64,000 nt of DNA from Bdellovibrionales bacterium (lineage in GTDB: Bacteria; Bdellovibrionota; Bdellovibrionia; Bdellovibrionales; JAUICD01), in the NCBI GenBank assembly GCA_965203275.1, contig OZ241865.1, forward strand, positions 2,272,001 to 2,336,000, written 5' to 3'. The notes below the pieces were generated by a model. The model saw nothing but the letters and a program-made list of their open reading frames with translations, was not told the DNA's origin and did no database searches. The translations under genes were made by a program, and so were the position numbers. Shown here one piece after another: positions 6,837 to 57,471 of this stretch. Position 1 is the stretch's first letter, and every line of letters begins with the position of its first letter.

Positions 6837-8129
6837 GTGAAAAAGATAATTTTATTACGTCAAGTCATTTTATTATGCATGCTATTTTTGATGGCCACAG
6901 ATGTTGCTGAAAGCCACACAGCAGATCAAATTTGTACTCATGTTCTCATTACAACCGATGATCAAAGGTTGGTTCATCTAAAGAAATATCTTGAAACTTA
7001 TAATAAGAAACCTTTTGACCAACCCAAAACCTCATTAGCAGAAGCCCTCGCAGAAATATTGTTACACATAAACCCTACTTTCAATAGAAAAATACCTTCA
7101 GATGCAACTGTAAAAAGAAATGTCTCTAATAGTACAATTGATGAGTATCAATTTTCAGATGATATTTTCAAACTCTATCGTTATCTTTCTTTTAACAGAG
7201 ATGAAGGTTCTGTACATTATGGAAGATGGCTTTTTTTCCAAATAAATCAAGAGCCTATAGAACATCCACTGGCCACAACTTACAATATACAACATACAGG
7301 TGTTGTGCTAACAATCGAATCCTTAGATAGAAATCTATATCGATATCATCTTTATTATATTGAAGATCAAGGACTTATTTTAGAAACTTTTGATCCTATA
7401 GTAGGGTTTGACTTTTATCTATCTTACAAAATAGACGATATACATATTGTTCTGCCTCATAAACAATCATATTTAAAGAGTAAAATGAAAAAACGTAATG
7501 ATTATTATATCCATTTGAATGAATATTCTATCAATCAAAATGCAAATATTTTTAGAAGAATGTTTAACCATCGAAAAATAGAGGATAACTATCAATTTAT
7601 ATCCTATGAGAATAATGAAAAAGAAATTGTTCCAGGTAAGATTCTTAATATTACAAGTCGTGTGACAGTTAAAGGTTTAATGGGCATTTTCTCCTTAGAC
7701 AACAGAGAAGAACTCAATAGTGTTTGGGTAGATGAAATATTGGGTGAAATTCTTATAACTTCTTATTTTTCAGAAGATAAAAATAAACCTTTTGACCCTT
7801 ATGCATTTATGAAGCCTCTGCCTCCTAAAAAGCCTCTTGATTATTATAGTGCTTTTAGATTTGCAAAAATTTTTCAATCAGGCCATTTAAAAGAGGATGA
7901 ACGTTTTATTTCTTATCCTATATCTCATCCAGATGGTCAAAGACGTATTGCTCAAATTATTCAGTGGGATGAATATCAAATGCAACTGATAGAATACAGA
8001 GGCAATGGAAAACCTTTTGTATTTAATCGAATTATATTATCAAGTAAACTTTTAGATAATATAACAATCAGTCGATATGCTAAAGAATATTTTACTCAAG
8101 TGGACTTTAATCGTTACTTATTTCACTAA
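6837..8129 (+). CDS. Secreted hypothetical protein
   Basis: 430-aa ORF with a signal-peptide-like N-terminus (MKKIILLRQVILLCMLFLMA); stop codon lies in the repeat end TTTCACTAA. Confidence 0.7.
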   Translation: MKKIILLRQVILLCMLFLMATDVAESHTADQICTHVLITTDDQRLVHLKKYLETYNKKPFDQPKTSLAEALAEILLHINPTFNRKIPSDATVKRNVSNSTIDEYQFSDDIFKLYRYLSFNRDEGSVHYGRWLFFQINQEPIEHPLATTYNIQHTGVVLTIESLDRNLYRYHLYYIEDQGLILETFDPIVGFDFYLSYKIDDIHIVLPHKQSYLKSKMKKRNDYYIHLNEYSINQNANIFRRMFNHRKIEDNYQFISYENNEKEIVPGKILNITSRVTVKGLMGIFSLDNREELNSVWVDEILGEILITSYFSEDKNKPFDPYAFMKPLPPKKPLDYYSAFRFAKIFQSGHLKEDERFISYPISHPDGQRRIAQIIQWDEYQMQLIEYRGNGKPFVFNRIILSSKLLDNITISRYAKEYFTQVDFNRYLFH

Positions 8130-8497
8130 AAGTGGTCTGACCTCTGGTCACTTTCTGGTTGCCAGCCGAAGGCTTTCGCCTTCTCAAATGCTGGCAACCT
8201 AGAAAGCCTGACCACTTTTAGTAGGGAGGATCTCCTCGTTTCTTAACAGGATGTTAAGGAAACAAAATGCTTTCAAAATTATATTAAAAGAGCAATGTCT
8301 CAAAAATCCGTTTATTTTTAGTAGGGAGGATCCTCTTGTCTCTTTACACGATGTTAAGGAAACAAGGCGTTTGCTTCACCCTTGCCTGATGCCGAGTTGC
8401 CGGTTTAGCTCACTAAAAGTGGTCTAGCCTCTGGCTACTTTCTGGCAATGACCACGATGGCTCTCGCCGTCGATCAAAGGCTAAAAACCCACTTTTT
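8121..8497 (+). repeat. Family A structured repeat cluster (REP/BIME-like)
   Basis: Full hairpin 8125-8222 (ACTAAAAGTGGTC...GACCACTTTTAGT), GTAG-GGAGGATC module, TTAACA-N3-TGTTAAGGAAAC palindrome and partial copies. Confidence 0.9.
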
Positions 8498-8748
8498 CAT
8501 GGGTTTGACAATTCTTAGCTATCATTTAATCATCGTGAAAGCCACAATAAAGCCACTTTCATAGAAAACTTTAACTTTAAAAGTTAAATAAAATTAAATA
8601 AAAGTTTACTTTTAATTTAAAAGGTTTATAATAATACTAAAGGTAGGTTGTAGGTTAAAATGACAAAAGTCTATCTTTTTTCTAAAATTTATGTATAAAG
8701 CTCCGATTAAATAAAATAAACATAGATCATAAAAACAGGGAGGCTTTT

Positions 8749-9138
8749 ATGATAGAGGATACTCCAAAGAATGGAGATTCGGCAGGACATGAACAAATCT
8801 CACAGAATAATACGAAAGGGTATTTTTGGACACCAAAAGATGTTGTAATTTTTTCTTTTGGAATCTTAGGCAGTCTTCTTTTGCTTCTTATAGTTGGTGT
8901 CGTTAGTGTTGCAGGAAGTTTGTTTTTTGTCGGTAGCATGTTAAATGAGCCTATCAAATCACAAATAAGCAGTTTCGAAGCAAAGCTTGATGAAAAATTT
9001 GATAGTCTAGCCGAGCAAAATAAAGAGTTTCAAGAAGCAATGATTGAACGAAATGAAAAGTTTGAAAAAGCAATGATTGAACGAAGTGAAAAGTTTGAAG
9101 ATACAGTTATTGACATTGTTAGAGCTTCAAATAATTGA
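8749..9138 (+). CDS. Small membrane protein with C-terminal coiled coil
   Basis: GGGAGG RBS; hydrophobic stretch at aa ~31-63; 11-aa tandem repeat EAMIERNEKFE/KAMIERSEKFE. Confidence 0.7.
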   Translation: MIEDTPKNGDSAGHEQISQNNTKGYFWTPKDVVIFSFGILGSLLLLLIVGVVSVAGSLFFVGSMLNEPIKSQISSFEAKLDEKFDSLAEQNKEFQEAMIERNEKFEKAMIERSEKFEDTVIDIVRASNN

Positions 9139-9440
9139 CTTTATCTAAAGGCCTAGCAACATTCAATTAATAATATATATAGAACGTCTAAAAAGAAAGT
9201 AGCTCAACAAAAGAGCTTTACAGCCCTTTTATTTTATTTAAGTAAATCTAAAGCCTTGCTGATAAAGTATTTGGATAGCAATTTAAGCTTTATCAAGGTA
9301 TGAAAAATCTTCATAGTTGCATTAACTTCTCTTACGATCTAAATAAATCTTTTTATAGAAATTTCTTGACTATTCAATTAATAGGCTTTATAATTCATTC
9401 TATTCATTAAAACAATTATAATAAACAGGAGGATTATATT

Positions 9441-9959
9441 ATGGTGAACAAAATTCTTTTAATAGTAATAGTATGTTTTTGTTTTTCTACCAAACCCTTA
9501 TTTGCTCAAACTTTTTTTTCTGTTGAACCTATGATCATACTAAAAGGGAGTAGTTTGTTATTAGCTAGCAGGTACAATGATACAGAGACTTTAAGCTCGT
9601 TGTTGGAAAATGGTGCAGACGTCAATTATTCAAATAGATGGGGTTACCTTTCTTTAATCGTGGCTAGTAAGTTCGGTGCTTTAGAGGCTGTAAATTTATT
9701 GCTAGATGCCGGTGCAGATGTCAATGCTGTCCATGCCCCTTCTGGTTGGAATTCTTTAATGTTTGCTGTTTGGAATAGCCGTCTTAAGGTTGTGGAGTCA
9801 TTGTTAGAAGCTGGAGCCAACGTCAATTATCAAAGCCGATTTGGCTATACGGCTTTAAATTATGCTAGACAAAAAGATCATACAGCTTTCACGAGTGCTA
9901 GACGAAAAGATCATATTGAAATTTTAAAACTCTTAGAAGAGGCCGGAGCTACAGAATAA
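9441..9959 (+). CDS. Secreted ankyrin-repeat protein
   Basis: Signal peptide; repeats LLENGADVN, LLDAGADVN, LLEAGANVN; AGGAGG RBS. Confidence 0.9.
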   Translation: MVNKILLIVIVCFCFSTKPLFAQTFFSVEPMIILKGSSLLLASRYNDTETLSSLLENGADVNYSNRWGYLSLIVASKFGALEAVNLLLDAGADVNAVHAPSGWNSLMFAVWNSRLKVVESLLEAGANVNYQSRFGYTALNYARQKDHTAFTSARRKDHIEILKLLEEAGATE

Positions 9960-10039
9960 TACCAATTCTATAAAGCCACGTATTTTTTTGACTCTTTTAA
10001 AGCTGTGTTTGCATTTTGACATCAATAGAATGAGAGAAA

Positions 10040-10367
10040 GGAGGATCTTCTCGTTTTTTAACGTGATGTTAAGGAAACAGAGCTTTATTCGCAAACTGCT
10101 TGCTCTTGAGGCAATAAAAGAAATTTTTCCTTAACATGGTATTTATCCGGGATCTGGGATCCGGCAACCCGGCAGTCAGGCAAGGGTGAAGCAAACGCCT
10201 TGTTTCCTTAACATGGTGTTAAGAAAAGAGGAGATCCTCCTTACTAAAAATAAACGGATTTTTGAGGCAATCAGCCTTTGATCGACGGCGAGAGCCGTCG
10301 GGCTGATTGCCCAAAAACAGCCAGAGGCTGGTTTACTTTTAGTGAAATAGACCATTTTGAGTGAAAA
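10040..10367 (-). repeat. Family A repeat cluster
   Basis: B-type palindromes, a heptamer array and a full hairpin at ~10243-10348. Confidence 0.9.
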
Positions 10368-21689: not shown

Positions 21690-22003
21690 TGCCGGTTTAG
21701 CTCACTCAAAGTGGCCTGTTTCACTAAAAGTAAACCAGCCGTTTGGTTCACTCAAAGTGGTCTAGCCTCTGGCTACTTTTGGGCAATGACCGCAAAGGCT
21801 TTCGCCTTTGACAAAATGGTCATTGCCTCAAAAGCCTGACCACTTTTAGTAGGAAGGATCCTTTCCTCTTTTGACACGATGTTAAGGAAAAAGATCTCCT
21901 TCTGATGCCGGGTTGCCGGATCCCGGATCCCAGATCCCGGGATCCCAGATCCCGGGATCCCAGATCCCGGGATCCCAGATCCCGGGATCCCGGAGGGAGG
22001 ATC
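21690..22003 (+). repeat. Family A repeat cluster plus 4x15-nt tandem GGATCCCAGATCCCG
   Basis: Hairpin ~21750-21850, B palindrome, tandem copies 21925-21984. Confidence 0.9.
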
Positions 22004-27000: not shown

Positions 27001-27817
27001 CACACAGCGTGGTTCATTGGTTGCAGAGGATCATCTTCGCTTTGACTTCACTCATTCAAAGCCAGTCACCCCTCAAGAAATATCTCAAATAGAAAAACTG
27101 ATCAACAATCAAATTGCACAAGCCCTGCCTGTAACGACCACTATTGAAAAAGTAGAGGACGCAAAAGCCAAAGGGGCAGTGGCTTTTTTTGCTGAAAAAT
27201 ATCCTGAAAAGGTACGCGTATTATCGATTGGTCACAACAAAGAATCCATAGAGCTTTGCGGTGGCACACATGTTAAGAACACCAGTGAAATTCAAGCCTT
27301 TGTCATTACACTAGAAGAGAGCATCAAAGGAGGTATTCGTCGGATCAAAGCCCTAGCAGGTCAATCAGCTATCAAGTATCTTTTAGAGCAGAGCAAAAAA
27401 CTCACAGTAGCTCAACAAGAAGCTCAAACAAAAAAGCTGACTGAATGGATTCGGCAGAGTCAACAAAACAACAAAGCTCTTAATAAACAAGTACAAAAAC
27501 TCACAGTAGCTCAAATCGATATTGACGCACTTGTTGCTGGGGCTACTGCAATAGAAGGCGGTCAACAAGTCAAAGCCATTTTAGAGATTAGTGATCGAGA
27601 GGCTTTAAGGCAGATCACCGATCGCATTAAAAATAAATTGGATGCAGGGATTGTGATTGTGATGGGGCAGGGTGAAAAGGGACCTTTGATGGTGGCAGTA
27701 ACTCAAAACTTAAAAGACAAATACAATGCTGTCATAGAGCTTAAAAAATACGGACAGGGAGGTGGTCGCCCTGATTTTGCTCAAGGCTTTCACTCCGTTT
27801 CTTTTCACTCAAAATAG
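24047..27817 (+). CDS. alaS: Alanyl-tRNA synthetase, expanded (1256 aa)
   Basis: LLFTNAGMNQFK, RHHTFFKMLGNFSFGDYFK, GPCGPCSEI, HHTATHLLH, ELCGGTHV, GGGRPDFAQ; carries insertions and an internal duplication. Confidence 0.95.
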   Translation: MKAMTSQEIENKFVEFFENKGHKHVSSSSLIPEGKDLLFTNAGMNQFKDIFLGLKIPSYKRAVTVQKCFRANDLDNVGKTPRHHTFFKMLGNFSFGDYFKKEAIEWAWEFLTHPDWLGIDKSRFYVTVFDTDDEALWEQIWQKDKEAIKRNKYAFIKKDKDNFWEMGSVGPCGPCSEIFYSYGDHDSQSQDSQSQDVEIWNLVFTQSDRQKDGSLKKLKGGPFIDTGAGLERLTAVMQGVESNFETDIFMDLFGYLLEEKVIVATIRAWRKGIQQPKNESEAKIQDENIRQVFDTFLKDLSDHLQLESVPKMSEDSLSRWFFMDYIGEFQNIFEGILKKLNTPNQRKALINFLCEYLQKDRTLREDTKNYKQNLLKQTINEDQKKQNRIALLKIADHARAIACLLTDGVTFPDEGRGYVARDIFKRMCKCLEKIGISIIASTRYYMPKLPASLERNYYTPCFLVNYFIKPIDISSSSEEKKQYRFIMDSIVNETIRHANKDEMKERDHQIYSNREKIKDKIKEIKQSEEKIKKLKKEIEEKKKALQKTSSQKNKDDSVLITEEEIKKTIKQNKDEIEKEEQKIKTNAGPIQKVEKEIEEKEKEQTEDLKEAKDEKIQKKENIFHKEFEKAFQNQIPSPEALGAFAFKIFETYGISKEGIKQLLQKRDIQLNEDFDKSFKDAMEKVKKASSQEYITSQEEHLKKLCRQAKASLCLFTQKHLEKLCEKIKASLSIQEHFVGYDTLSTQTQILKLSDGQQEVQQLPAGQKGFAFFKQTPFYAESGEQMADQGAVKNLSQETLAQITDCQKYENIHYHKIQIKNNILRVNDKVILQVDSERRAETKKHHTASLSIQKYFVEHFVGYDQLSAETQILKLSDGQQEVQKLPAGQEGYAIFKQTPFYAESGGQIADQGEVKNLSQETLAQIIDCQKYEDIHYHKIQIQNNILKVNDKVILQVHPERRAETKKHHTATHLLHAALKEKLGDLVTQRGSLVAEDHLRFDFTHSKPVTPQEISQIEKLINNQIAQALPVTTTIEKVEDAKAKGAVAFFAEKYPEKVRVLSIGHNKESIELCGGTHVKNTSEIQAFVITLEESIKGGIRRIKALAGQSAIKYLLEQSKKLTVAQQEAQTKKLTEWIRQSQQNNKALNKQVQKLTVAQIDIDALVAGATAIEGGQQVKAILEISDREALRQITDRIKNKLDAGIVIVMGQGEKGPLMVAVTQNLKDKYNAVIELKKYGQGGGRPDFAQGFHSVSFHSK

Positions 27818-28649
27818 TCTAGCCGTCTTTTGCACTAAAAGTAAACTGACCTCTGGTCACTTTTGGATAGCCAGCCCGACGGCTTTCGCCGTCGATCAAA
27901 GGCTGGCTACCTCAAAAGTCCGTTTACTTTTAGTAGGGAGGATCTCATCGTTTTTTGACATGATGTTAAGGAAAAGTTCCTTCTTACATCTTTTGCCTGC
28001 AAAGGCTTTCGCCTTTGACAAAATGGTCATTGCCTCAAAAGCCTGACCACTTTTAGTAGGAAGGATCCTTTCCTCTTTTAACATCATGTTAAGGAAACAA
28101 AATGCTTTCAAAATTATATTAAAAGAGCAATGCCTCAAAAGTCCGTTTACTTTTAGTAGGGAGGATCTCTTCGTTTTTTAACACGATGTTAAGGAAACAA
28201 GAAGTTCGTTTCTCTGGATTTCTTTGGAAAGGTAAGGAATTTAGGTTTGGAAATTAGATTTTCAGTGATTTCAGCTATTTTGGTTCACTAAAAGTAAACT
28301 AGCCTCTGTTTCACTAAAAGTAAACCAACCTCTGGTTGCTTTTGGACAGTTAGCCCGACGGCTCTCGCCGTCGATCAAAGGCTAACTGTCTCAAAAGTCC
28401 GTTTACTTTTAGTAGGGGAGGATCCTCTCGTCTCTTGACCACATGTTAAGGAAAAAGTTCCTTCTTACACCTTGAGTGTTGCCTGCAACGGCTTTCGCCG
28501 TTGACAAAATAGGCAACATCTAAAAAATCTGCTCATTTTGAGTAGGGAGGATCTCTTCGTTTTTTAACACGATGTTAAGGAAACAAGATGTTTGCTTCAC
28601 GTTGGCAAAATGGTCATTGCCTCAAAAATTTATGCATTTTGAGTGAAAC
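27789..28649. repeat. Large Family A repeat mosaic
   Basis: Begins TTTCACTC and ends GAGTGAAAC; at least two full and several half hairpins, multiple B palindromes and module C (28193-28272). Confidence 0.9.
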
Positions 28650-31402: not shown

Positions 31403-31740
31403 TTTCACTCAAAATGAACTGACCTCTGGTCACTTTTGGACAATGACCGCAAAGCCTTTCGCCTTTGACAAAATGGTCATTGTCTCAAAAGCCTGTTCAT
31501 TTTGAGTAGGGCGAATCTCCTTGCTTCTTACACCATGTTAAGGAAAATTTTCTTTCATTGCCTTAAAGGCAAGCATTTTGCAAATGAAACTCTTTTTCCC
31601 TAACATCCTGTCAAAAAATGAGGAGATCCTCCCTACTAAAAGTGGTCAAGCTTTCTAGGCGATGACCATTTTATCGACGGCGAGAGCCGTCGTGGTCATC
31701 GCCAGAAAGTAGCCAGAGGCTAGACCACTTTTAGTGAAAC
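31403..31740. repeat. Family A cluster with two hairpins in opposite orientation (MITE-like)
   Basis: Starts TTTCACTCAAAATGAAC and ends GACCACTTTTAGTGAAAC. Confidence 0.9.
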
Positions 31741-32161: not shown

Positions 32162-32671
32162 AATCACTGAAAATCTAATTTTTAAACCCAAATTCTCTAC
32201 CTTTTCAAAGAAATCCAGAGAAACGAACACCTTGTTTCCCTAACATGGTATTAAAAAAAGAAGGGATCCTCCTTACTAAAAGTAAACGGACTTTTGAGGT
32301 AGCCAGCCTTTGATCGACGGCGTGAGCCAAAAGGTGTAAGAAAGAACTTTTTCCTTAACATGAAGTAAAAAGAAACGAAGAGATCCTCCTACTAAAAGTG
32401 GTCAAGCTTTCTAGGTTGCCATTGGTGATGAAGGAATTTTTCCTTAACATCATGTTAAAGGACGAAGAGATCCTTCCCTACTAAAAATAAACGGATTTTT
32501 GAGGCATTGCTCTTTTTGGACAGCGATAGCTGTCAGAGCAATGCCCAAAAACAGCCAGAGGCTGGTTTATTTTTAGTGAAAAAGATAAGAAGGCGACAGC
32601 CTTCGGCTGGCAACCAGAAAGTGACCAGAGGTCAGACCACTTTTAGTGAAACAACCACTTTTAGTGAAACA
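32162..32671 (-). repeat. Family A repeat mosaic including module C
   Basis: 32162-32239 is an inverted copy of 28193-28272; full hairpin ~32480-32580; tandem ACCACTTTTAGTGAAACA at the right edge. Confidence 0.9.
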
Positions 32672-34073: not shown

Positions 34074-34496
34074 TCCGGGATCCGGGATCCGGCATCAGAA
34101 AGATTTGTTTCCTTAACATCGTGTAAAGAGACGAGAGGATCCTTCCTACTAAAAGTAAACGGACTTTTGAGACATTGCTCTTTTTGGACAGCGTAAGCTG
34201 TCAGAGCAATGTCCAAAAGTAGCCAGAGGCTAGTTTACTTTTAGTGCAAATCAAATGAGGCAATGACCATTTTGTCAACGTGAAGTAAACATCTTGTTTC
34301 CTTAACATCGTGTAAAGAGACAAGAGGATTCTTCCTACTAAAAATAAACGGATTTTTGAGGCAATCAGCCTTTGATCGACGGCGACAGCCGTCGGGCTGA
34401 TTGCCCAAAAAGAGCCAGAGGCTGGTTTATTTTTAGTGAAACAAACGCGGTCATTGTCCAAAAACATGCCAGAGGCATGATGCATTTTGAGTGAAA
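34074..34496 (-). repeat. Family A repeat cluster
   Basis: Heptamer array, B palindromes, full hairpins at ~34148-34247 and ~34337-34441. Confidence 0.9.
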
Positions 34497-39762: not shown

Positions 39763-39776
39763 TATTACATCCTTGC

Positions 39777-41615: not shown

Positions 41616-41624
41616 TTTTATCCT

Positions 41625-41825: not shown

Positions 41826-41836
41826 AATATTATTCC

Positions 41837-42310
41837 CTATATGCCACGTTCTGCTTTGACAATACTATCTGTTTTGAGTTGTTGAAGCCCTTGAAATGTA
41901 GCACGAACAGCTGTATGAGAATTCCTAGTACCAACACATTTTGTGAGGATGTTTTTTATACCCGCTACTTCTAATACAGATCGTACAGCACCTCCTGCAA
42001 TCACACCAGTTCCTGACATTGCAGGGAACATAATGATCTTACCTACACCGTATTTGCCAATCACTTCATGCGGGATAGTGCCTTTTTCAATAATGATTTT
42101 AGAGATGTTGTTTTTAGCAGCTCGACCTGCTTTGCCAATAGCTATAGGTACTTCATTGGCTTTGCCAAGACCAAAACCTATCTCGCCGTTTTTATTGCCT
42201 ATAACCACTAAAGCCGAAAAAGAAAACCTTCGTCCACCTTTCACAACCTTAGCTACTCGATTGACACTCACAACTCGCTCTTCAAACTCTTGCATTGTTT
42301 CTTCTTCCAC
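41837..42310 (-). CDS. rpsE: 30S protein S5
   Basis: [32 protein letters not shown] 42310 after GGGAG chosen as start. Confidence 0.95.
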
Positions 42311-42322
42311 AAACACTCCCAA

Positions 42323-42691
42323 TTCGTTCGTTCTTGGGTAAGTCGCAAGGCGACTTACCTGTCATCCCTCTGTGTTCCTTCGTTCATCATCGTCACATAG
42401 GACCCTTACTTAGACTGCTCATTCATTTGTTTGTTGGGCAATCCGCAAGGCGGCTTGCCTGTCATTCCTCTGTGTTCCTTCGCTTATCATCGTCATATAG
42501 AACCCTTACTTAGACTGCTCATTCATTCTACTATTCGTTCGTTCTTGGGTAAGTCGCAAGGCGGCTTGCCTGTCATTCTCCTGTGTTCCTTCGTTCATCA
42601 TCGTCACATAGGACCCTTACTTAGACTGCTCATTTTGTGTTCCTTCGTTCATCATCGTCATATAGGACCTTTGCTCATTCTCATTTCATTT
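42323..42691. repeat. Family B tandem repeat (~100-nt units)
   Basis: Units GTTCTTGGGCAATCCGCAAGGCGGCTTGCCTGTCATT...CCTTCGTTCATCATCGTCACATAGGACCCTTRCTTAGACTGCTCATT, about 3.5 copies. Confidence 0.9.
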
Positions 42692-42897
42692 TTAAAATTG
42701 TAATCCCTTTTCACGAGCAGCATCTGCCAAGGACTTGATACGACCATGATATAAATAGCCACTGCGATCAAATTTGACAGATTTAATGTTTTTCTCTAAA
42801 GCTATTTGGGCTATTTTAAACCCAAGAGACTTAGCTGTCTCTTTATTATTTTTAGCTTCCTTAAGTGAGGAAGCAAAAGCTAATGTTTTTTTCATTT
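42692..42897 (-). pseudogene. Duplicated 3' two-thirds of rplR
   Basis: Identical to 42999-43204 except three synonymous changes; 5' end replaced by a Family B unit. Confidence 0.8.
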
Positions 42898-42998
42898 GTT
42901 TCTTGGGCAATCCTCAAAGAGGCTTGCCTGTCATTCTCCTGTGTTCCTTCGTTCATCATCGTCACATAGGACCCTTGCTTAGACTGCTCATTTCATTT
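42895..42998. repeat. Single Family B unit
   Basis: CTTGGGCAATCCTCAAAGAGGCTTGCCTGTCATT...GACTGCTCATT. Confidence 0.9.
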
Positions 42999-43361
42999 TT
43001 AAAATTGTAATCCCTTTTCACGAGCAGCATCTGCCAAGGATTTGATACGACCATGATATAGATAGCCACTGCGGTCAAATTTGACAGATTTAATGTTTTT
43101 CTCTAAAGCTATTTGGGCTATTTTAAACCCAAGAGACTTAGCTGTCTCTTTATTATTTTTAGCTTCCTTAAGTGAGGAAGCAAAAGCTAATGTTTTTTTC
43201 ATTTGATCGTCAATAACTTGGGCATAAATGTATTTATTGGACCGAAATACAGCCAATCGAGGTCTTTCACTAGTACCCTCTAGCTTCTTTCTAATATGAA
43301 CTCGATTTTTTAACCGAGATATGACTTTTTTTGCAGTGGATTTATGTATTTGTAATCTCAT
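42999..43361 (-). CDS. rplR: 50S protein L18
   Basis: [41 protein letters not shown]. Confidence 0.97.
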
Positions 43362-43446
43362 TTCTTTCCTTCTTTGGACAATTTGCTAAAACAACTGACT
43401 TGTCATTTTCTCACACCTATAAGCTTGCCTATCATAGAAAACCTGC

Positions 43447-43995
43447 TTACTTACTTCCTGTCTTCCCTGCTTTACGTTTGATCGTTTCATCTGAGTATTT
43501 AACTCCTTTGCCTAAGTAAGGCTCTGGTGGTCTAAAAGATCGTATCTTTGCTGCTAGTTGCCCTACGACTTGTTTATTTGATCCCTTAATATGTACAGTG
43601 GTTTGTTTGTCAACTTTCACTTCAATATTTGATGGTAACTTTAAAACAATAGGATGACTATAACCTAAACTTAATTCTAAAGCACTTCCTTTGACAGTGG
43701 CCCTATAACCTACACCTTTCATTTCCAATGTTTTTGTCCAACCATCTGTGACACCCTTGACAGCATTGTAAACCAAAGACCTATAAAGTCCATGCAGAGA
43801 TCGACTTGTCTTTGAATCATCTTTTCTAGTTAATAAAATAGCGTTATCTTTAATAGAAGCCGATATTGCAGGTTTCATACAAATCACTTGAGCCAATCCA
43901 GAGGCTCCTTTGATCTTGACCTCACGGCCATTATCAAGAATGTCTACTTGGATATTTGATCCAAACATAATCGGAAGTTTACCAATTCTAGACAT
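43447..43995 (-). CDS. rplF: 50S protein L6
   Basis: MSRIGKLPI, GVGYRA, LGYSHP, RPPEPYLGKGVKY. Confidence 0.97.
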   Translation of the reverse strand: MSRIGKLPIMFGSNIQVDILDNGREVKIKGASGLAQVICMKPAISASIKDNAILLTRKDDSKTSRSLHGLYRSLVYNAVKGVTDGWTKTLEMKGVGYRATVKGSALELSLGYSHPIVLKLPSNIEVKVDKQTTVHIKGSNKQVVGQLAAKIRSFRPPEPYLGKGVKYSDETIKRKAGKTGSK

Positions 43996-44008
43996 CATCT
44001 AAACCCTT

Positions 44009-44412
44009 TGTTTGTTCGTTCTTGGGTAAGTCGCAAGGCGACTTACCTGTCATTATCCTGTGTTCCTTCGTTCATCATCGTCATATAGGACCCTTGCTTA
44101 GACTGCTCATTTGTTTCTTGGGCAATCCGCAAGGCGGCTTGCCTGTCATTCTTTTGTATTCCTTCGTCCATCATCGTCATATAGGACATTTGCTCAAACT
44201 GCTCATTCATTTGTTCTTGGGCAATCCGCAGGGTGGCTTGCCTGTCATTCTTTTGTGTTCCTTCGCTTATCATCGTCACATAGGACCCTTGCTTAGACTG
44301 CTCATTTGTTTCTTGGGCAATCCGCAGGGTGGCTTGCCTGTCATTCTTTTGTGTTCCTTCGCCTATCATCGTCATATAGGACCCTTGCGTTCGTCGTTGG
44401 GCAATCCGCAGT
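44009..44412. repeat. Family B tandem array (4 units plus partial; periods 96, 99, 96 nt)
   Basis: CTTGGG anchors at 44021, 44117, 44216, 44312. Confidence 0.92.
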
Positions 44413-44422
44413 TAGTTTATTT

Positions 44423-44806
44423 TTACCAAACTTGAATGAGGACCTCTCCGCCCACGTTATGCTTTTTAGCTTCTTCCCCTGACATCACGCCTTTACTCGT
44501 ACTTAAAATTGAAAGCCCATAACCTGATCGCACCTGAGGTATTTGTTCTACGCCTACATATTTTCTCAAACTTGGTTTACTCACTAAACGGATAGTATTT
44601 ATTAAAGGCTTTTGTTGCTGTGTGTACTTAAGATCAATCTGTAAAACATCCTGCTTAGAATCTTTATAAACCATAAAGTTTTTGATAAAACCATTTTTCT
44701 TTAAAACAACAGCAATAGCTTTCTTTATATGTGAGTATGGTACATCTACTTGAGTGTGATTTGCCATTTGGGCATTTCTTATACGGGTAATAAAATCAGC
44801 AATCAT
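44423..44806 (-). CDS. rpsH: 30S protein S8
   Basis: IADFITRIRNA, SKPSLRKY, ILSTSKGVM, GGEVL. Confidence 0.97.
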   Translation of the reverse strand: MIADFITRIRNAQMANHTQVDVPYSHIKKAIAVVLKKNGFIKNFMVYKDSKQDVLQIDLKYTQQQKPLINTIRLVSKPSLRKYVGVEQIPQVRSGYGLSILSTSKGVMSGEEAKKHNVGGEVLIQVW

Positions 44807-44830
44807 TGATTGAACTCCTTTTAATCTGTA

Positions 44831-45016
44831 TTACCAACTAGCTTTGATCACTCCAGGAATTAAACCATTACCTGCTCTCTGTCTGAAGCAAATACGGCAC
44901 ATTGCAAATTTTCGCATATAGCTACGTGGCCTTCCACAAATAAGACAACGATTATATTTTCTGACTTTAAATCTTGGCTTTTTTTGAGCCTTAGCAATCA
45001 TTGCTTTTTTAGCCAT
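44831..45016 (-). CDS. rpsZ: 30S protein S14 type Z
   Basis: 61 aa; RCLICGRPR...CRICFR...PGVIKASW. Confidence 0.95.
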
Positions 45017-45044
45017 ATCTCTACTTTTTCCTTTTAGGCTTTCT

Positions 45045-45181
45045 GTTCATTCGTTCGTTCTTGGGCAATCCTCAAAGAGGCTTGCCTGTCATTCTCCTGT
45101 GTTCCTTCGCCCATCATCGTCATATAGGACCTTTGCTTTTGATTTGTTCTTGGGCAATCCTCAAAGAGGCTTGCCTGTTAT
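45045..45181. repeat. Family B units (about 1.4 copies)
   Basis: GTTCTTGGGCAATCCTCAAAGAGGCTTGCCTGT occurs twice. Confidence 0.88.
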
Positions 45182-45183
45182 TG

Positions 45184-45729
45184 TTATTTCTTCTTAAAAG
45201 GCATGCCCAGAGAATCCAATAAAGCTAATCCTTCTTTATTTGTTTTTGCTGATGTGCAAATAGAAATATTCATCCCTCTAATCTGATCAATTTTATCATA
45301 ATTAATTTCAGGGAAAACAATTTGCTCTCTAAGTCCCATATTAAAATTGCCTCTGCCATCAAAGCCTTGTGGGGAAATACCTCTAAAGTCCCTTACACGT
45401 GGAAGAGCTAAACAAATTAAACGATCTAAAAAAGCCCACATTTTTTCCCTTCTCAGAGTGACATAAGCCCCTAATGCCATACCTTTCCTTAATTTAAAAT
45501 TAGCAATAGCTTTTTTTGCCCTCGCTGTGCAAGCTTTTTGTCCTGTCACTTGAGCTAGTTCTGCTTCTATCACATTGACAATTTTAGAATTTTTAACAGC
45601 TTCTTTGCCAGCACACACACTCACTACAATTTTTTTAAGCTTAGGTACCTGCATAACAGAGCCACAAGCAAGTTGCTCCTTAAGCTTTAATTTAACTTCT
45701 GAATGATACTTTTTTTGTAGTCTTTGCAT
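45184..45729 (-). CDS. rplE: 50S protein L5
   Basis: LPRVRDFRG, FDGRGNF, EQIVFPEI. Confidence 0.97.
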   Translation of the reverse strand: MQRLQKKYHSEVKLKLKEQLACGSVMQVPKLKKIVVSVCAGKEAVKNSKIVNVIEAELAQVTGQKACTARAKKAIANFKLRKGMALGAYVTLRREKMWAFLDRLICLALPRVRDFRGISPQGFDGRGNFNMGLREQIVFPEINYDKIDQIRGMNISICTSAKTNKEGLALLDSLGMPFKKK

Positions 45730-51374: not shown

Positions 51375-52271
51375 GTGAGCAGGCCCATGCAACATATACA
51401 CAATACATTTTTTCAACAAGTTCATCATCAGACAAGTTGTGTTTCAAGACAAACCAATACAGATATTTTAAAATGGCTAGATAAAATCTATTGTGGTGAT
51501 TGTTTGGAAGTCATGCAAAAGATACCAGCAGATTCCATAGATTTGATTGTCACATCACCACCATACGCAGATGCCCGTAAGCACACTTATGGTGGCATTC
51601 TCCCAGATCGATACACACAATGGTTTTGCCAGAGAGCAAAGCAGATGTTAAGGATTTTAAAACCTACAGGTTCCTTTGTGTTGAATATTAAAGAGAAGGC
51701 CATTGATGGAGAACGTCACCCTTATGTATTAGAGTTAATTCTTGCACTTAAGAAACAAGTAGGGTTTAGATGGGTAGAAGAGTACATTTGGCATAAAACA
51801 ACATCTGCTCCTGGAAAATGGAAGTATCGTTTTAGGGATTCTTGGGAACGCATTTTACATTTTTCAAAAACAAAAAACATTAAAATGAGACAGGAGGCTG
51901 TTAAAATTCCTGTTGGTGATTGGACGAAGCAACGATTAAAAAATATGAGTCAGCGAGATTTGCTACGTCAAAATTCAGCTACCAATAGTAAAATGGGACG
52001 GCGGATTGCAGCTTGGAAGGGAAAGAAGTTAGTTTATCCAAGTAATGTTTTGCATCGCCCTCCTGTGTGCCACAATACAGGTCATAGTGCAGCTTTCCCT
52101 AAATGGTTACCAGAATTTTTTATTTTGTTGTTTACTGATCCTCAAGATATTGTACTGGATCCTTTTCTGGGGAGTGGTACAACATATCTAGTAGCTAAGA
52201 GATTAAATCGCAGACCTATTGGTATTGAGATCAATAAACTCTACATTGAAAAAATATCAGAGGATATTTAG
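51375..52271 (+). CDS. Amino-MTase (N4-C/N6-A), beta order
   Basis: TSPPY precedes DPFLGSGTT. Confidence 0.9.
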   Translation: MSRPMQHIHNTFFQQVHHQTSCVSRQTNTDILKWLDKIYCGDCLEVMQKIPADSIDLIVTSPPYADARKHTYGGILPDRYTQWFCQRAKQMLRILKPTGSFVLNIKEKAIDGERHPYVLELILALKKQVGFRWVEEYIWHKTTSAPGKWKYRFRDSWERILHFSKTKNIKMRQEAVKIPVGDWTKQRLKNMSQRDLLRQNSATNSKMGRRIAAWKGKKLVYPSNVLHRPPVCHNTGHSAAFPKWLPEFFILLFTDPQDIVLDPFLGSGTTYLVAKRLNRRPIGIEINKLYIEKISEDI

Positions 52272-52293
52272 TGAAAATCAAAATAACCCCCCA

Positions 52294-53601
52294 ATGAATA
52301 TGAAATGGATGAATATGAAATGGATGAATATGAACACTATAGACAAAAAAACCATTCGCATTGAAGGTGATATCCCTGTACAATTACCTATTCACAATGG
52401 CAGTCGCTTTTTATTTATCAGTTATGATCAGAGTGCTTTAACACACGGTATTCATAAATATCCAGCAAAGTTTTTTCCTGAACTGCCTCGCTGGTTTATT
52501 CAAAGATATTCTCAACCTGGTGATATCATTCTTGATCCTTTCATGGGAAGTGGTACCACTAATTTGGAAGCTTCATTACTTGGACGTCACAGTGTAGGTG
52601 TAGATGTGGATCCGTTCTCTCGATTTATTGCAACAGTTAAGACAACCCCATTGCCAACACAGAGGCTTATAAAGGTTTATAATGAACTTAAAGCAAAAGT
52701 GAGCCTTTATGTTGAACCAAAGCATCTAAAAAATGTTCCTGATTTTCCTTATAGGGATAAATGGTTTAAGCCTTACATTCTCAAGGAATTAGCGTACATC
52801 AAGACATCTATTGAACGATTACAGACAGTTCAATCTATTAAAAATTTTTTTCTTGTTTGTTTTTCTTCTATCATTCGGCAAGTTTCTGAAGCAGACAATA
52901 ATTGTACAAGAACAGTTATAAGGAAGAAACTCAACAAGCAGGTTTTGCCATGTTATGCAATAAATTTGTTTTTGAAAAAGATAGAAGTACATGTAAAAAA
53001 TATGATTCTTTTTGCAAAAAAGAAACCAAAGGGAAGAGTCACCATTCCTCAAAATGTGGATGCAAGAGATATGTCTGTTTTTCAGGATGAAATTTTTAAT
53101 CTTGCTATCACCTCTCCTCCTTATTTGAATGCAGTAGATTATCCTCGTACACATCAGCTAGAGATATATTGGTTAGGCTTTGCTAGTGGTTCACTTAAGT
53201 CACTTAAAAGTCACCATGTAGGATCAGAGATTGTATCATCAAAAGAATACTCTCAGTTTCATAAAACAAATTGTCAGCTTGCCAATGATGTTATTGATAA
53301 AATTTATAAAATTGATCCACGCCGTGCTTATATTGCAACAAAATACATACAAGACATGATCATTAACTTACGTGAAGTTTATCGTGTGTTAAAATGTGGA
53401 TCTCCATACATCATTGTGGTTGGTAATAATTTGATTCGTGGTTTTCCATTTGAAACATGGCGTTATCTTCAAGAGGAAGCACTTAAAATAGGCTATAAAG
53501 TAGAGTCTTATTTTGTATCAGAAATCATCAATCACTTTATCAAAGTTCCACGTAAAGAACGCATTAACAATGATTATATTCTTATCTTAAGGAAGCCATA
53601 A
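52294..53601 (+). CDS. Amino-MTase (probably N4-C), alpha order
   Basis: HKYPAKF, DPFMGSGTT precedes TSPPY; start uncertain because of the tandem MNMKW repeat. Confidence 0.9.
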   Translation: MNMKWMNMKWMNMNTIDKKTIRIEGDIPVQLPIHNGSRFLFISYDQSALTHGIHKYPAKFFPELPRWFIQRYSQPGDIILDPFMGSGTTNLEASLLGRHSVGVDVDPFSRFIATVKTTPLPTQRLIKVYNELKAKVSLYVEPKHLKNVPDFPYRDKWFKPYILKELAYIKTSIERLQTVQSIKNFFLVCFSSIIRQVSEADNNCTRTVIRKKLNKQVLPCYAINLFLKKIEVHVKNMILFAKKKPKGRVTIPQNVDARDMSVFQDEIFNLAITSPPYLNAVDYPRTHQLEIYWLGFASGSLKSLKSHHVGSEIVSSKEYSQFHKTNCQLANDVIDKIYKIDPRRAYIATKYIQDMIINLREVYRVLKCGSPYIIVVGNNLIRGFPFETWRYLQEEALKIGYKVESYFVSEIINHFIKVPRKERINNDYILILRKP

Positions 53602-54459
53602 TGGATCATAAAAACTATTTTTGAGGTCGTCATTTGTTATTAATCTGCCTCCTGTTTGCTTAGCTAAAATATCCTTTTGTACTAATGTCTTTATATCAGA
53701 TAGCATCCTAGACTGACAGACAATCAAGAGCGTATCCATGCCCATAGCTCCACAACCTTTCACCACTGTTTTAGGAAAGTATTTTTTAATATGTTGTTTT
53801 AGTTTTTGTGTATTTTGACAACAAAATCTCTTTTCCTCTAAACATTGAGCAAATTCTTCTAAAGCCTTTAAAAATTCTGGTATGTTTTTTTGTAAGAGGG
53901 CCTTAATGGCTTTTTGGCTTTTTTGAGCAAGCAACTGACAAGCTTGTAAGTTAATATTTTCTTTAAGATGTTGATGTGTCAATATTTTATGACCTGTTGT
54001 GCAGATCACAAAACTTAAACCTTTAAAAAATTCTTTAAAAGGAAGAATCTTGAAAGTATTTTTTGGTATATCAATATAACACATTCCACCTAAGCATTGA
54101 GAGAGGACATCAACTCCACTAGGAGCAATGCCACCTTGACCCATATCTTTTTGATATTGGTTTTTAATTTTAGAAGCTAATTTTGCAGAGAGGTTATGAT
54201 GAAAGAGACATGTTTTTTCATATTCGCTAAGGTGATTGCCAGAAAGATATTGACAGAGCCATTTGGCACTTGAAGCTCCAAAGCCTCCTACTTTAGAGGC
54301 TTTTTGGGTTTTGTCGTTTTGATTTTGTTGGTATGGGTCTAAAAAGTGTCCATCTTGAAATTGAAAGTAGGGGAGGGTATTAAGGAGCAAAGCACCTCCT
54401 TCTTGTAGGACACCATATTCTCCTATGAGAAATGTTTTACTTGGAATTAAAAAAGGCAT
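53587..54459 (-). CDS. GHMP kinase (mevalonate/phosphomevalonate kinase-like)
   Basis: PSKTFLIGEY, GGFGASSA, PSGVD, KGCGAMG. Confidence 0.75.
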   Translation of the reverse strand: MPFLIPSKTFLIGEYGVLQEGGALLLNTLPYFQFQDGHFLDPYQQNQNDKTQKASKVGGFGASSAKWLCQYLSGNHLSEYEKTCLFHHNLSAKLASKIKNQYQKDMGQGGIAPSGVDVLSQCLGGMCYIDIPKNTFKILPFKEFFKGLSFVICTTGHKILTHQHLKENINLQACQLLAQKSQKAIKALLQKNIPEFLKALEEFAQCLEEKRFCCQNTQKLKQHIKKYFPKTVVKGCGAMGMDTLLIVCQSRMLSDIKTLVQKDILAKQTGGRLITNDDLKNSFYDPLWLP

Positions 54460-55982: not shown

Positions 55983-56776
55983 ACAGACACCTCCGCTTTA
56001 ATTTTAGGGTAAGGATGATAATTGATCAACTGAAAATCCTCATACTTAAATGCATCAATGTTTTTAATATGACGATTAAGAATTAAAGTAGGTAAGGGAC
56101 GTGGTTGCCTAGAAAGTTGTAATTTAACCTGTGGTAAATGGTTAGAGTAAATATGGGCATCTCCTAGAGTATGTACAAACTCTCCTGGTGTTAAGTCACA
56201 TACTTGAGCAATCATCATAGTTAGCAAACTATAGCTGGCAATGTTAAAAGGCACACCTAAGAACAAATCGGCACTTCTTTGATAGAGTTGACAAGACAAT
56301 TGACCGAGGTCATCCACATAAAATTGAAAAAGCGTATGGCAAGGGGGCAAAGCCATTTGATCTAAATCTGATACATTCCATGCACTGACAATCAATCTTC
56401 TAGAAGTGGGGTCTTTTTTAATTTGGCTGATCACTTGAGCAACTTGATCCACACTTTTTTGAGAGGAAACCTTCCAAGATCGCCATTGTTGTCCATAAAT
56501 AGGACCTAGATACCCTTTTGAATCAGCCCATTCATTCCAAATACTCACTTTATTTTCTTGTAAATATTTGACATTGGTATCCCCTTTTAAAAACCAAAGT
56601 AACTCATAAATAATAGAACGTAAATGAACTTTTTTGGTGGTTAAGAGCGGGAATCCTTTTTGAAGGTTATATCTAGCTTGTAGACCAAATTTGCTTAAAG
56701 TCCCTGTACCAGTGCGGTCTTTACGCTCCTGGCCTGTCTCAATAACATCTTTTAAAATATCTAAATAAGATTTCAT
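55979..56776 (-). CDS. thyA: Thymidylate synthase
   Basis: [32 protein letters not shown]. Confidence 0.98.
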
Positions 56777-57164
56777 TTTAAATCTACTATTATGTATTTT
56801 GTTTATTTTATTTAATGATTAAATTTTTTGATTTTTTTTTAAAACCATCACATTATTTTAAAAAGTTTATATTATATATAATGGGGTCTAGTCATTGGCA
56901 AAAAATTCTTAATAATTTAAATAAAAATATACTTAATTTTGACTTTGACAGTTTATATAGATTAAACTATACCTCTACAAATTAAGATAATCATATTTTT
57001 TTATTCTGGCTTTGACTTTGATACTCTCAATAGGGTATATTTTTTAGCTTTGTAATAAATGAATAATTATAATATATTAATAGAAGGAAAGTGTTTATTT
57101 GGGATCCGGGATCCGGGATCCGGCAACAGAAGGGAAGGCATTTTGTTTCTTTAACATGGAAATG

Positions 57165-57274
57165 TATGAGTGGAATGCGGGGGCAGGCTTCCGAAGTCCT
57201 CAACCTTCGCTTGCTCTTGAGGGAGCAAGCGGGTTTGCGGAAGATCTTCAGCCTACCCCCGCCTCCCACTCATA
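57165..57274. other. 110-nt GC-rich rod-like hairpin (candidate ncRNA or repeat element)
   Basis: TATGAGTGG/CCACTCATA, GCGGGGGCAGGCT/AGCCTACCCCCGC, CGCTTGCTC/GAGCAAGCG. Confidence 0.6.
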
Positions 57275-57312
57275 ATATTTATGTTTTTTAAGAATTATAA
57301 TTATAAAGATGT

Positions 57313-57471
57313 CTTGTTTCCTTAACTTAATCAGTTCACATGGTGTTAAGGAACGAAAGGATCCTCCTTACTCAAAGTGAACAGGCTTTCTAGGTTGCCA
57401 GCATTTGAGAAGGCGGTAGCCTTCGGCTGGCAACCAGAAAGTGGCCAGAGGCCAGTTCACTTTGAGTGAAA
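57313..57471 (-). repeat. Family A unit (B module plus full hairpin)
   Basis: ACTCAAAGTGAAC...GTTCACTTTGAGTGAAA. Confidence 0.9.

What the first reader, a model, noticed from the sequence alone, without database searches (positions are those of the whole stretch)
8121..57471. Dispersed ~100-nt branched hairpin family whose stems co-vary between copies
Seen in eight intergenic clusters (8121, 10040, 21690, 27789, 31403, 32162, 34074, 57313), with about ten full and many partial copies. The stems change sequence but stay paired. Outer 13-bp stem: ACTAAAAGTGGTC, ACTCAAAATGAAC, ACTCAAAGTGAAC, ACTAAAAGTAAAC, ACTAAAAATAAAC, each with its matching complement. Side hairpin: TGACC, TAGCC, CAGCC, CAACC, TGGCC or ATGCC, always closing a TCT loop. 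Long stem: GGTTGCCAGC, GGCAATGACC, GGCAATCAGCC, GACAGTTAGCC or GGCATTGCTC with complements. The apical stem ends in a c-GNNA-g loop on one strand (GAAA, GAGA, GACA, GGTA, GATA, GTAA). Junction nucleotides are conserved. The hairpin is followed by GTAG-GGAGGATC(C/T)CTC and a TTCCTTAACA-N3-TGTTAAGGAA palindrome. Established: GTAG plus palindrome defines RAYT-mobilised REPs, and cGNNAg loops are unusually stable in DNA. Inference: an undescribed structure-selected mobile ssDNA/RNA element, more complex than classical REPs. No mobilising gene is in the window.
Basis: partly seen in the sequence, partly recalled or inferred. Interest (0 to 1): 0.85.

Follow-up and report, generated by a model that had tools for sequence, protein, structure and literature searches.

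The report
Self-nesting three-armed hairpin DNA repeat
A 145-base non-coding DNA unit that folds into a three-armed hairpin makes up about 6% of the genome of an uncultured Bdellovibrio-like bacterium; it behaves as a selfish repeat that keeps its shape while its letters change, and its insertion scars suggest it is pasted in as a single strand by short sequence matches, with no known jumping-gene enzyme found in the genome.

Summary
The window has 11 full and 10 partial copies; the 2.57-Mb genome has about 750 full copies, about 6% of its DNA, nearly all intergenic. Stems covary beyond relatedness: 30 of 41 pairs change on both sides, and amplified copies are almost always perfectly paired. 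No Rfam match; a covariance model finds it in 3 of 121 genomes of the order, and one of these probably holds mis-binned contigs, so it looks confined to one genus. The REP reading is weak: GTAG is not invariant, the quoted palindrome never occurs exactly, and no RAYT was found. Reverse transcriptase, IS91 and IS110 were not found either. Comparison with element-free paralogues shows no fixed duplication, loss of a few to tens of target bases, loose ends and excess microhomology. Best reading: a selfish single-strand donor pasted in by microhomology and homology during replication; the helper is unknown, and recJ was not found. A four-helix-bundle gene and Rpn genes are closely tied but act at least partly as targets. 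The scan reported this family earlier from other windows of the same genome. New variant of a known kind.

The parts
8121..8262 (+). Full copy used as reference. Head TTTC; outer stem P1 8125-8137/8210-8222; side hairpin P2 8138-8150 (TCT loop 8143-8145); long stem P3 8151-8166/8190-8206 with T bulge at 8200; apical stem P4 8168-8183; 3-nt junction 8207-8209; weak hairpin T1 8225-8235; tail hairpin T2 8240-8261 with fixed right arm. The head supplies the stop codon of ORF 6837-8129.
8284..8362 (+). Partial copy (3' half and tail)
8410..8489 (+). Partial copy (5' half)
10036..10077 (+). Tail only
10147..10183 (+). 7-base tandem repeats (GGGATCT/GGGATCC/GGCAACC type) of the kind that flank the four-helix-bundle gene elsewhere in the genome
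   Evidence: sequence
10203..10346 (-). Full copy, preceded by an orphan head at 10363
21700..21746 (+). Two stacked orphan heads in front of the full copy
   Evidence: sequence; (head at 21722)
21747..21890 (+). Full copy
21904..21993 (-). 7-base tandem repeat array joined to the tail
   Evidence: sequence
27803..27828 (+). Orphan head; supplies the stop codon of alaS (24047-27817)
27832..27974 (+). Full copy
27995..28197 (+). Two partial copies (27995-28097, 28119-28197)
28283..28454 (+). Orphan head cut at the P2 loop (28283-28308), followed directly by a full copy (28310-28454): the commonest nesting pattern
28476..28646 (+). Two partial copies (28476-28583, 28600-28646)
31404..31546 (+). 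Full copy, tail to tail with the next
31595..31738 (-). Full copy
32235..32421 (-). Two partial copies (32235-32328, 32350-32421)
32439..32580 (-). Full copy
32589..32650 (-). Partial copy (5' part), cut where the next copy begins
34076..34098 (+). 7-base tandem repeats at the tail of the next copy
   Evidence: sequence
34108..34247 (-). Full copy
34297..34440 (-). Full copy, preceded by an orphan head at 34493
57335..57471 (-). Full hairpin; tail hairpin interrupted near its end

Best explanation
A selfish, non-coding, non-autonomous repeat confined, so far, to one genus of Bdellovibrionales. Shown: it multiplies, lands in tolerated DNA (older copies of itself, other repeats, four-helix-bundle and Rpn genes, gene ends), and copies that fold perfectly are the ones that amplify. 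Inferred: the mobile form is one strand, more likely DNA than RNA, whose whole body folds into a three-way junction plus two small hairpins, leaving a short leader and a 10-35-base trailer free. Trailer and leader anneal to exposed single-stranded chromosome by homology and microhomology, the folded body loops out between them, and host replication or repair fixes it in place. The few to tens of target bases between the two matches are lost, as in short-patch double illegitimate recombination. Inferred: the invariant unpaired bases (TCT loop, AAA bulge, T bulge, ATGTTARGG) are read by a protein that makes or protects the donor strand. That protein is not identified; the multi-copy four-helix-bundle protein and the Rpn nucleases are the candidates present. 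Odds: selfish mobile repeat with selection on its fold about 0.9; single-strand donor joined by annealing about 0.55; the whole model with host enzymes doing the joining 0.4.
For: Abundance and intergenic position. Covariation: 96.4% of cells paired, 30 of 41 pairs changed on both sides, slid controls at most 47% (30 sequences). P1 arms 75 bases apart are more tightly linked (NMI 0.66) than neighbouring modules (0.48, 0.30) on 468 distinct hairpins. P1 is perfect in 71% of distinct hairpins against 40% (max 44%) when shuffled within the same inner-allele class, and in 92 of 103 hairpins with 2 or more copies against 242 of 365 singletons (p=2e-6). Junctions: 63 distinct filled/empty pairs, 47 with target loss of 3-114 bases, 16 with overlaps of 2-40, no fixed duplication; among the 16 single-unit inserts 13 replace 4-29 bases and the tail junction lies 9-34 bases past the fixed motif. 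695 of 1327 heads directly follow an older copy. The same codon of the four-helix-bundle gene is hit in both genomes with small target loss and no duplication. No Y1, RT or IS110 in G000, with controls ringing. recJ was not found in G000 or G001, a prediction I noted before the search; single RecJ deficiency raises this kind of recombination slightly (10.1101/2023.11.22.568220, first third of the text read).
Against: Such recombination is very rare in Acinetobacter (about 1e-12 or below in wild type) and is suppressed by RecA and DprA; both are present in G000, as are MutS and ExoVII. recJ is also not found in G003, G004 and G009, which lack the element on their own contigs, so its loss is at most permissive. 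56 of 109 head junctions show no microhomology, and the estimate is partly circular because the donor flanks come from the same genome. Paralogues are not true pre-insertion alleles; later gene conversion can mimic deletions, and several 'overlaps' are tandem repeats. Invariant loops point to a dedicated protein, and the assembly is 90% complete, so a transposase or RT could be missing or lost. Strand evidence conflicts. No mobility was observed directly; laid runs showed no empty site.
Confidence: 0.4

Rival explanations
1. An elaborate REP/REPIN-like element moved by a Y1 HUH transposase (RAYT/TnpA-REP) that has been lost or was not assembled. The enzyme binds the fold near GTAG, cuts single-stranded DNA at short words at variable distances on both sides and rejoins strands.
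Against: No Y1 gene in G000 and no HUH-like motif candidate of that kind; G001's is an IS200 with no element in its 3.4-kb locus. GTAG varies, whereas it is conserved in over 90% of members of most REP families (PMC3733652, passages). The hairpin after GTAG has 5 or more pairs in only 172 of 703 copies against 94 in column shuffles. The last target base at the head is C in 10 of 109 junctions.
Confidence: 0.2
2. A retro-element without its own polymerase, like a SINE: an RNA of the reverse strand, trimmed to the foot of the outer stem, is reverse-transcribed from a nick in the target by a borrowed RT, with the Avd-like four-helix-bundle protein as chaperone.
For: One end is nearly fixed with 0-10 extra bases, the other is variable and carries flank. 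In G000, 25 of 28 four-helix-bundle 3' ends have the element starting 40-200 bases downstream on the same strand, against 76 of 1535 ORFs. The protein is TIGR02436, its one PDB match is XCC0516, and that family resembles Avd (PMC10053308, passages). G001 has three RT matches.
Against: No RT in G000 by profile, by tblastn with relatives' RTs or by motif. No wobble alleles in the main stems: 7 GT and 5 AC among 2987 pairs of amplified hairpins. About a third of apical loops break the GNRA rule (GGTA 91, GATA 88, GACA 49 of 747). The gene is expanded without the element in other genomes (0 of 11 loci from the G004-type large contigs; at most four weak hits, E 0.003-0.06, among 54 loci of other genomes), sits in other orientations in G001 and is itself a target.
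Confidence: 0.17
3. The copies are made by replication accidents at the hairpin (stalling, template switching, gene conversion), and covariation comes from one arm being copied onto the other, not from selection; or the host keeps the fold for a use of its own such as mRNA protection or nucleoid organisation.
For: 9 of 29 double changes between stem alleles are transversions, which one-step arm copying explains easily. Mosaic, self-nested clusters. GC skew is flat along the contig, which suggests heavy rearrangement. Heads tend to face neighbouring genes.
Against: Arm copying does not explain invariant unpaired bases (94-100% at the loop, bulge and tail positions), nor fixed polarity, nor why amplified copies are more often perfect than singletons. 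The family is missing from 118 of 121 genomes of the order, breaks genes and shows no conserved position, which argues against a host role.
Confidence: 0.13
4. A miniature rolling-circle element (IS91/ISCR/Helitron type): the head is the origin, the tail palindrome a leaky terminator, and read-through carries flanking DNA.
For: Two unlike ends, no target duplication and capture of flank at one end match IS91 one-ended transposition; the commonest bases before the head (TTTG, TCTG, GTTG) resemble the CTTG target (PMC13181058, passages).
Against: No Y2 transposase in 5 genomes (no control genome rang, so this is weak). The head junction is not base-exact, only 99 of 287 heads with unique flanks have TG at the expected place, and target bases are lost.
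Confidence: 0.08

Closest known systems
REP / BIME / REPIN elements with RAYT (TnpA-REP) (PMC3733652, PMC8266576, PMC3116915; passages read)
   Same: Hundreds of intergenic, non-coding palindromic units; subfamilies with alternative complementary stems; inverted pairs and tandem clusters carrying flank; no target duplication; GTAG before a small palindrome in most copies.
   Different: 145 bases with a three-way junction against 20-40-base single hairpins; GTAG not invariant; no wobble in main stems; no RAYT found; strong self-nesting and target loss.
[quoted passage not shown]
   Same: Replacement of a few to about 100 target bases, junctions at microhomologies, no dedicated enzyme, raised by loss of RecJ.
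   Different: SPDIR is a rare mutation process with random donors, not a family; here one donor is copied about 1300 times with fixed polarity, and RecA and DprA are present.
IS91 family and one-ended transposition (PMC13181058; passages read)
   Same: Two unlike ends with palindromes, no target duplication, flank carried at one end.
   Different: No transposase, no exact end, no fixed four-base target, target bases lost.
Bacterial MITEs: Correia/NEMIS, ERIC, RUP, RPE, CIR, YPAL (PMC2229807; first third read)
   Same: 100-200 bases, non-autonomous, strongly folded, intergenic.
   Different: No terminal inverted repeats at the true ends, no TA ends, no target duplication; branched fold with exchangeable stems.
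Four-helix-bundle (TIGR02436 / 23S-IVP, Avd-like) genes of rRNA intervening sequences and diversity-generating retroelements (PMC10053308, passages; PMC4990558, search listing only)
   Same: A multi-copy gene of this family with 7-base repeats travels next to the element in G000.
   Different: No RT, template repeat or rRNA context; the gene is expanded without the element elsewhere and is also a target.
Small dispersed repeats of Nostoc and double-hairpin elements of fungal mitochondria (recalled; the Nostoc paper was not held)
   Same: Small structure-conserving repeats with no known mover; the Nostoc ones are recalled as tied to heptamer repeats.
   Different: Much shorter (about 20-80 bases) and unbranched; not compared by sequence here.

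Membership tests
REP/REPIN with RAYT | Conserved GTAG at the foot of the palindrome (over 90% in most families) | tested here: not met
   521 of 688 (76%) in G000; GGAG and GTAA in G001 copies
REP/REPIN with RAYT | 20-40-base single stem-loop, or an inverted doublet of it | tested here: not met
   145-base unit with a three-way junction; hairpin after GTAG weak
REP/REPIN with RAYT | Y1 transposase gene flanked by the repeats | tested here: not met
   None in G000 (90% complete); G001's IS200 and G002's three Y1 loci carry no element
REP/REPIN with RAYT | High copy number, intergenic, clustered | tested here: met
REP/REPIN with RAYT | Cleavage of the single strand at CT or CA by the cognate enzyme | not testable with these tools
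   Junction bases do not single out C|T (10 of 109 end in C), but microhomology blurs the cut point
MITE (DDE-mobilised) | Terminal inverted repeats at both ends | tested here: not met
   Ends are head and tail, unlike each other; the inverted P1 arms lie at 5-17 and about 92-104 of 145
MITE (DDE-mobilised) | Fixed-length target-site duplication | tested here: not met
   63 junction pairs range from -40 to +114 with no mode
IS91/ISCR miniature | Base-exact origin end next to a fixed four-base target | tested here: not met
IS91/ISCR miniature | Y2 transposase in the genome | tested here: inconclusive
   0 of 5 genomes, but no control genome rang
Retro-element or DGR-like | Reverse transcriptase available | tested here: not met
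   None in G000; three in G001, one of them with a copy about 450 bases away, which the copy density could explain
Retro-element or DGR-like | Avd-like accessory gene linked to the element | tested here: inconclusive
   25 of 28 in G000; 9 of 15 loci within about 500 bases in the element-bearing relative, mixed orientation; 0 of 11 on G004-type large contigs
Retro-element or DGR-like | Discrete RNA of the element | not testable with these tools
   no RNA holder listed
Known structured RNA (Rfam 15) | Match at the gathering score | tested here: not met
   0 in the whole window; only sub-threshold hits, best to a plant microRNA hairpin, in 27700-34600
Integron attC site | Integron integrase and gene-cassette arrays | tested here: not met
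   Two tyrosine recombinases in G000, by my reading a XerD-like and a 187-aa protein; copies lie between housekeeping genes
IS110/IS1111 bridge-RNA remnant | DEDD recombinase in the genome | tested here: not met
   0 in G000 and G001, controls ring

The most novel reading that the evidence does not exclude
A DNA parasite that needs no transposase: its fold alone makes it a stable single strand that loops out and is pasted in by the host's replication at short matches, possibly protected or delivered by the Avd-like four-helix-bundle pentamer. It would be selected as a shape, swap whole stems as modules, and give a first role to a widespread protein family of unknown function.
Probability: 0.2. 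Interest if true: 0.85.

Novelty: new variant of a known kind. Interest (0 to 1): 0.57.

Why it matters
How the many bacterial palindromic repeat families without a known transposase spread is an open question. This family offers about 750 full copies, about 26 perfectly paired stem alleles in four helices, and dozens of scorable junctions in one genome, so rival mechanisms can be told apart by allele comparison and a simple insertion assay. If folded single strands are pasted in by host enzymes, that is a mode of selfish spread outside the transposase and retro classes. If an enzyme exists, it reads a DNA three-way junction and has escaped the standard profiles. Either way the repeat has reshaped about 6% of a small genome and breaks multi-copy genes.

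Tried and rejected
Rfam at gathering and E-value thresholds: nothing real. Plasmid and phage collections by blastn, and one strict pattern in viral contigs: no match. One head pattern in metagenome contigs gave 15 loci, none matched by the covariance model. Presence in a second genus (G004): rejected as probable mis-binning, because all 12 model hits lie on three small contigs, and contig C11 carries a second rplN 98% identical to G001's while the copy on large contig C14 is 79%; C1 and C4 were not tested this way. Rpn nucleases as the dedicated mover: attractive at first (51 of 56 ORFs of the paralogue cluster flanked, against 516 of 1832), but the cluster includes 7 unrelated proteins and many fragments made by insertion, only 3 of 9 G001 loci have a copy, and G003 has 20 Rpn matches and no element; kept only as a candidate source of nicks. 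The four-helix-bundle gene as an obligatory partner: rejected, see rivals. Tyrosine recombinases: not tied to the element. Leading or lagging strand bias: not testable, GC skew is flat. Sequencing runs: no RNA holder listed; contigs of four runs confirm the repeat at about 100-200 times flank depth in three of them (X2, X6, X8; less in X7) but showed no join across a cluster. PF17917 search uninformative, no control rang. mostly compared elements with elements and was replaced. One search used a structure string out of register and was replaced. The model R1 used the tool's own consensus structure. Ten paper searches found no description of this family; the library lacks most subscription journals, and supplements were not read.

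Full report
Observation. The eight clusters are in the sequence. A profile trained on genome copies finds 11 full and 10 partial copies in the window, plus orphan heads; 6 weak opposite-strand self-matches were set aside. The unit is 145 bases: a head (TTTC), a 13-bp outer stem P1, a 5-6-bp side hairpin P2 with a TCT loop, a long stem P3 with one T bulge, an internal loop ending in AAA, an apical stem P4 with a 4-5-base loop, a 3-base junction, a weak hairpin T1 and a tail hairpin T2. Three copies fold with z of -7.2 to -9.7 on either strand as DNA or RNA.

Scale and range. The window lies in a 2.57-Mb, 35% GC, single-contig genome, 90% complete. A profile from 9 window copies gives 1340 hits, and 0 in the reversed genome; 747 span the model; coverage is 5.9-6.1%; 6 of 1340 lie inside long ORFs. 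Independent runs show the repeat at about 100-200 times flank depth in three of four laid, so it is not an assembly artefact; one of them is labelled sponge metagenome and holds diverged flanks. Relatives of a linked gene lie in records titled Bdellovibrionales, Bacteriovoracaceae or Oligoflexia; the 16S looked Bdellovibrio-like to me (recalled). A covariance model finds the unit in 3 of 121 genomes of the order. In G004 all 12 hits are on three small contigs, and C11 carries a second rplN 98% identical to G001's, against 79% for the copy on large contig C14; those contigs are probably mis-binned, leaving one genus. No match in Rfam, plasmids, phages or viral contigs, nor in 15 metagenome pattern hits.

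Covariation. On 30 copies from three assemblies, 96.4% of cells pair, 30 of 41 pairs change on both sides, and slid structures reach at most 47%; the shuffle control there ignores relatedness. Controls that keep it: on 468 distinct hairpins the two P1 arms, 75 bases apart, share more information (0.66) than P1 with its neighbour P2 (0.48) or P2 with P3 (0.30), and P2, P3 and P4 arms reach 0.83-0.90. P1 is perfect in 71% of distinct hairpins against 13% in free shuffles and 40% in shuffles within the same inner-allele class. Each of the eight common P4 alleles occurs with 3-9 perfect P1 alleles, so stems are exchanged as modules. Among hairpins with 2 or more copies and the same P3 arm, 12 of 21 differing pairs have both P1 arms changed and perfect, 6 differ in one arm and 3 are imperfect; with singletons included the figures are 57 of 276, 120 and 99. 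P1 is perfect in 92 of 103 amplified hairpins against 242 of 365 singletons (p=2e-6): the fold is selected at copying, and chimeras are dead ends, though recent chimeras would be singletons anyway. Unpaired bases at the P2 loop, AAA, T bulge and tail motif are 94-100% fixed; the 3-base junction is not (51-80%).

DNA or RNA. Amplified hairpins have 7 GT and 5 AC among 2987 pairs, and the non-Watson-Crick alleles with 5 or more copies are mostly chimeras of two good alleles. Reverse-strand loops include GGTA 91, GATA 88 and GACA 49 of 747, outside the RNA GNRA rule and inside the c-GNNA-g class of stable DNA loops (recalled). DNA is more likely; the strand is open. No RNA run was listed.

How it lands. 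Of 1327 heads, 695 follow an older copy directly, mostly at the P2 loop (about 200) or in the middle of an opposite-strand tail (89); many of these are amplified composites, not separate events. For 67 heads with a non-element flank and an element-free paralogue, 63 distinct junction pairs show 3-114 target bases lost (47) or 2-40 overlapping (16), with no fixed duplication; 13 of 16 single-unit inserts replace 4-29 bases, and the tail junction lies 9-34 bases beyond the fixed motif. At 109 head junctions the last target base lies 0-14 bases before the head, and microhomology averages 1.69 against 0.63 at random sites, although 56 have none and the measure is partly circular. Among 287 heads with unique flanks only a weak T-rich, TG preference appears. 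The cleanest natural pair is the four-helix-bundle gene, interrupted at the same codon in G000 and G001 with a few bases lost, a 14-20-base trailer and no duplication. These scars exclude cut-and-paste MITEs and conservative recombinases and fit exact-nick HUH enzymes poorly.

Search for a mover. Not found in G000: Y1, RT, IS110, Y2 (no control), HUH motifs. The two tyrosine recombinases look like housekeeping ones. Two multi-copy genes are tied to the repeat. A 101-aa TIGR02436 four-helix-bundle gene (PDB match XCC0516; family resembles Avd, PMC10053308 passages) has 33 matches, and 25 of 28 3' ends are followed by the element against 76 of 1535 ORFs. It is also expanded in genomes without the element (G004 24, G021 23, G025 12), is near the element in 9 of 15 loci of the element-bearing relative in mixed orientation and 0 of 11 on G004-type large contigs, and forms its own cassette with a leader hairpin and 7-8-base repeats. 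Rpn nuclease ORFs are flanked in 51 of 56 cases, but many are fragments made by insertion, G001 shows 3 of 9 and element-free G003 has 20 matches. RpnA is a non-specific endonuclease whose cuts can prime template switching and which showed no preference for a cruciform (PMC5350276, passages). Both are targets and passengers at least in part; either could still be the helper. recJ was not found in G000 or G001, nor in G003, G004 and G009, and was found in 4 of 9 genomes; RecA, DprA, MutS, ExoVII and a weak RecO match are present.

Mechanism. I commit to a single-strand donor pasted in by annealing. The folded body brings leader and trailer close, both anneal to exposed chromosome, the body loops out, and replication fixes it with loss of the bases in between, as described for short-patch double illegitimate recombination (10.1101/2023.11.22.568220, first third read). 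This explains selection on pairing regardless of sequence, junctions just outside the folded body, self-nesting through homology, and module exchange. It does not explain the invariant loops without a protein, and the known process is very rare when RecA and DprA are present. Shown: amplification, selection on fold, junction pattern, absence of profile-detectable movers in a 90% complete assembly. Inferred: single-strand intermediate, annealing, host joining. Confidence 0.4; lost RAYT 0.2; borrowed RT with the Avd-like protein 0.17; replication accident or host use 0.13; rolling circle 0.08.

Comparison and verdict. It works like REP/REPIN and other non-autonomous palindromic repeats but fails their membership tests (PMC3733652, PMC8266576, PMC3116915, PMC13181058: passages; PMC2229807: first third). 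Ten paper searches found no description; subscription journals and supplements were not covered, and the paper on Nostoc small dispersed repeats was not held. Earlier notes of this scan describe the same family from six other windows of this genome and four-helix-bundle cassettes in other genomes; I saw them after finding the gene link and tested the claims I use. New variant of a known kind; interest 0.57.

Noticed in passing
window 57160-57290: A second long-hairpin repeat (about 110 bases, DNA fold z -7 to -9) with 57 matches in G000 and none in 12 relatives by BLAST; it is a frequent target of the main element. G001 has a hairpin family sharing short motifs with it.
   Followed up: partly
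window 42322-45193: A 100-base repeat with one small hairpin, 11 matches, all between genes of the ribosomal protein operon and nowhere else in the genome. Unexplained.
   Followed up: partly
window 2014-6444 (-): A 1476-aa Cas9-like gene (Pfam Csx12 lobe) with no cas1, cas2 or array evident in the window; the ORF beside it (1416-2072) has three 153-base repeats.
   Followed up: no
window 34510-45729 (-) and 58160-64000 (+): The S10-spc-alpha ribosomal operon is split into two oppositely oriented blocks; RpoA (540 aa, repeat-rich tail), L17 (fused to a thioredoxin-like domain), L3 and AlaS are longer than usual. GC skew is flat over the whole contig.
   Followed up: no
window 8127-8129 and 27815-27817: Element heads supply the stop codons of ORF 6837-8129 and of alaS.
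   Followed up: no
L044, L025, L035, L043, L037 (G026, G025, G021) and many of L095-L158: Four-helix-bundle genes in other Bdellovibrionota sit behind a long perfect hairpin covering the ribosome site, often with an inverted second copy or inverted first codons upstream, and 7-8-base repeats nearby (22 of 80 loci periodic against 14 of 301 control spots).
   Followed up: partly
G004:C11 (L007), also C1 and C4: Probably mis-binned contigs from a G001-like organism: duplicate rplN at 98% to G001. G001 and G004:C11 also hold extra partial rplN copies.
   Followed up: partly
G000 whole genome: Large paralogue expansions: about 57 Rpn matches, 34 pilin-like genes, 58 small coiled-coil membrane proteins, ankyrin proteins, and by my reading IS256-like (9) and IS1634-like (9) transposases; at least ten further non-coding repeat families.
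   Followed up: partly
G003, G004 (large contigs): No tyrosine recombinase match at all, so no XerC/XerD found, in two 1.6-Mb relatives.
   Followed up: no
window 31760-32230: A 470-base AT-rich spacer between two clusters is itself a multi-copy repeat (about 57 related intervals; raised depth) and a frequent target.
   Followed up: no
window 28845-30286 (-) and 51375-54459: Two probable restriction-modification units: C5 methylase with PD-(D/E)XK nuclease, and two N6/N4 methylases facing an unknown gene.
   Followed up: no
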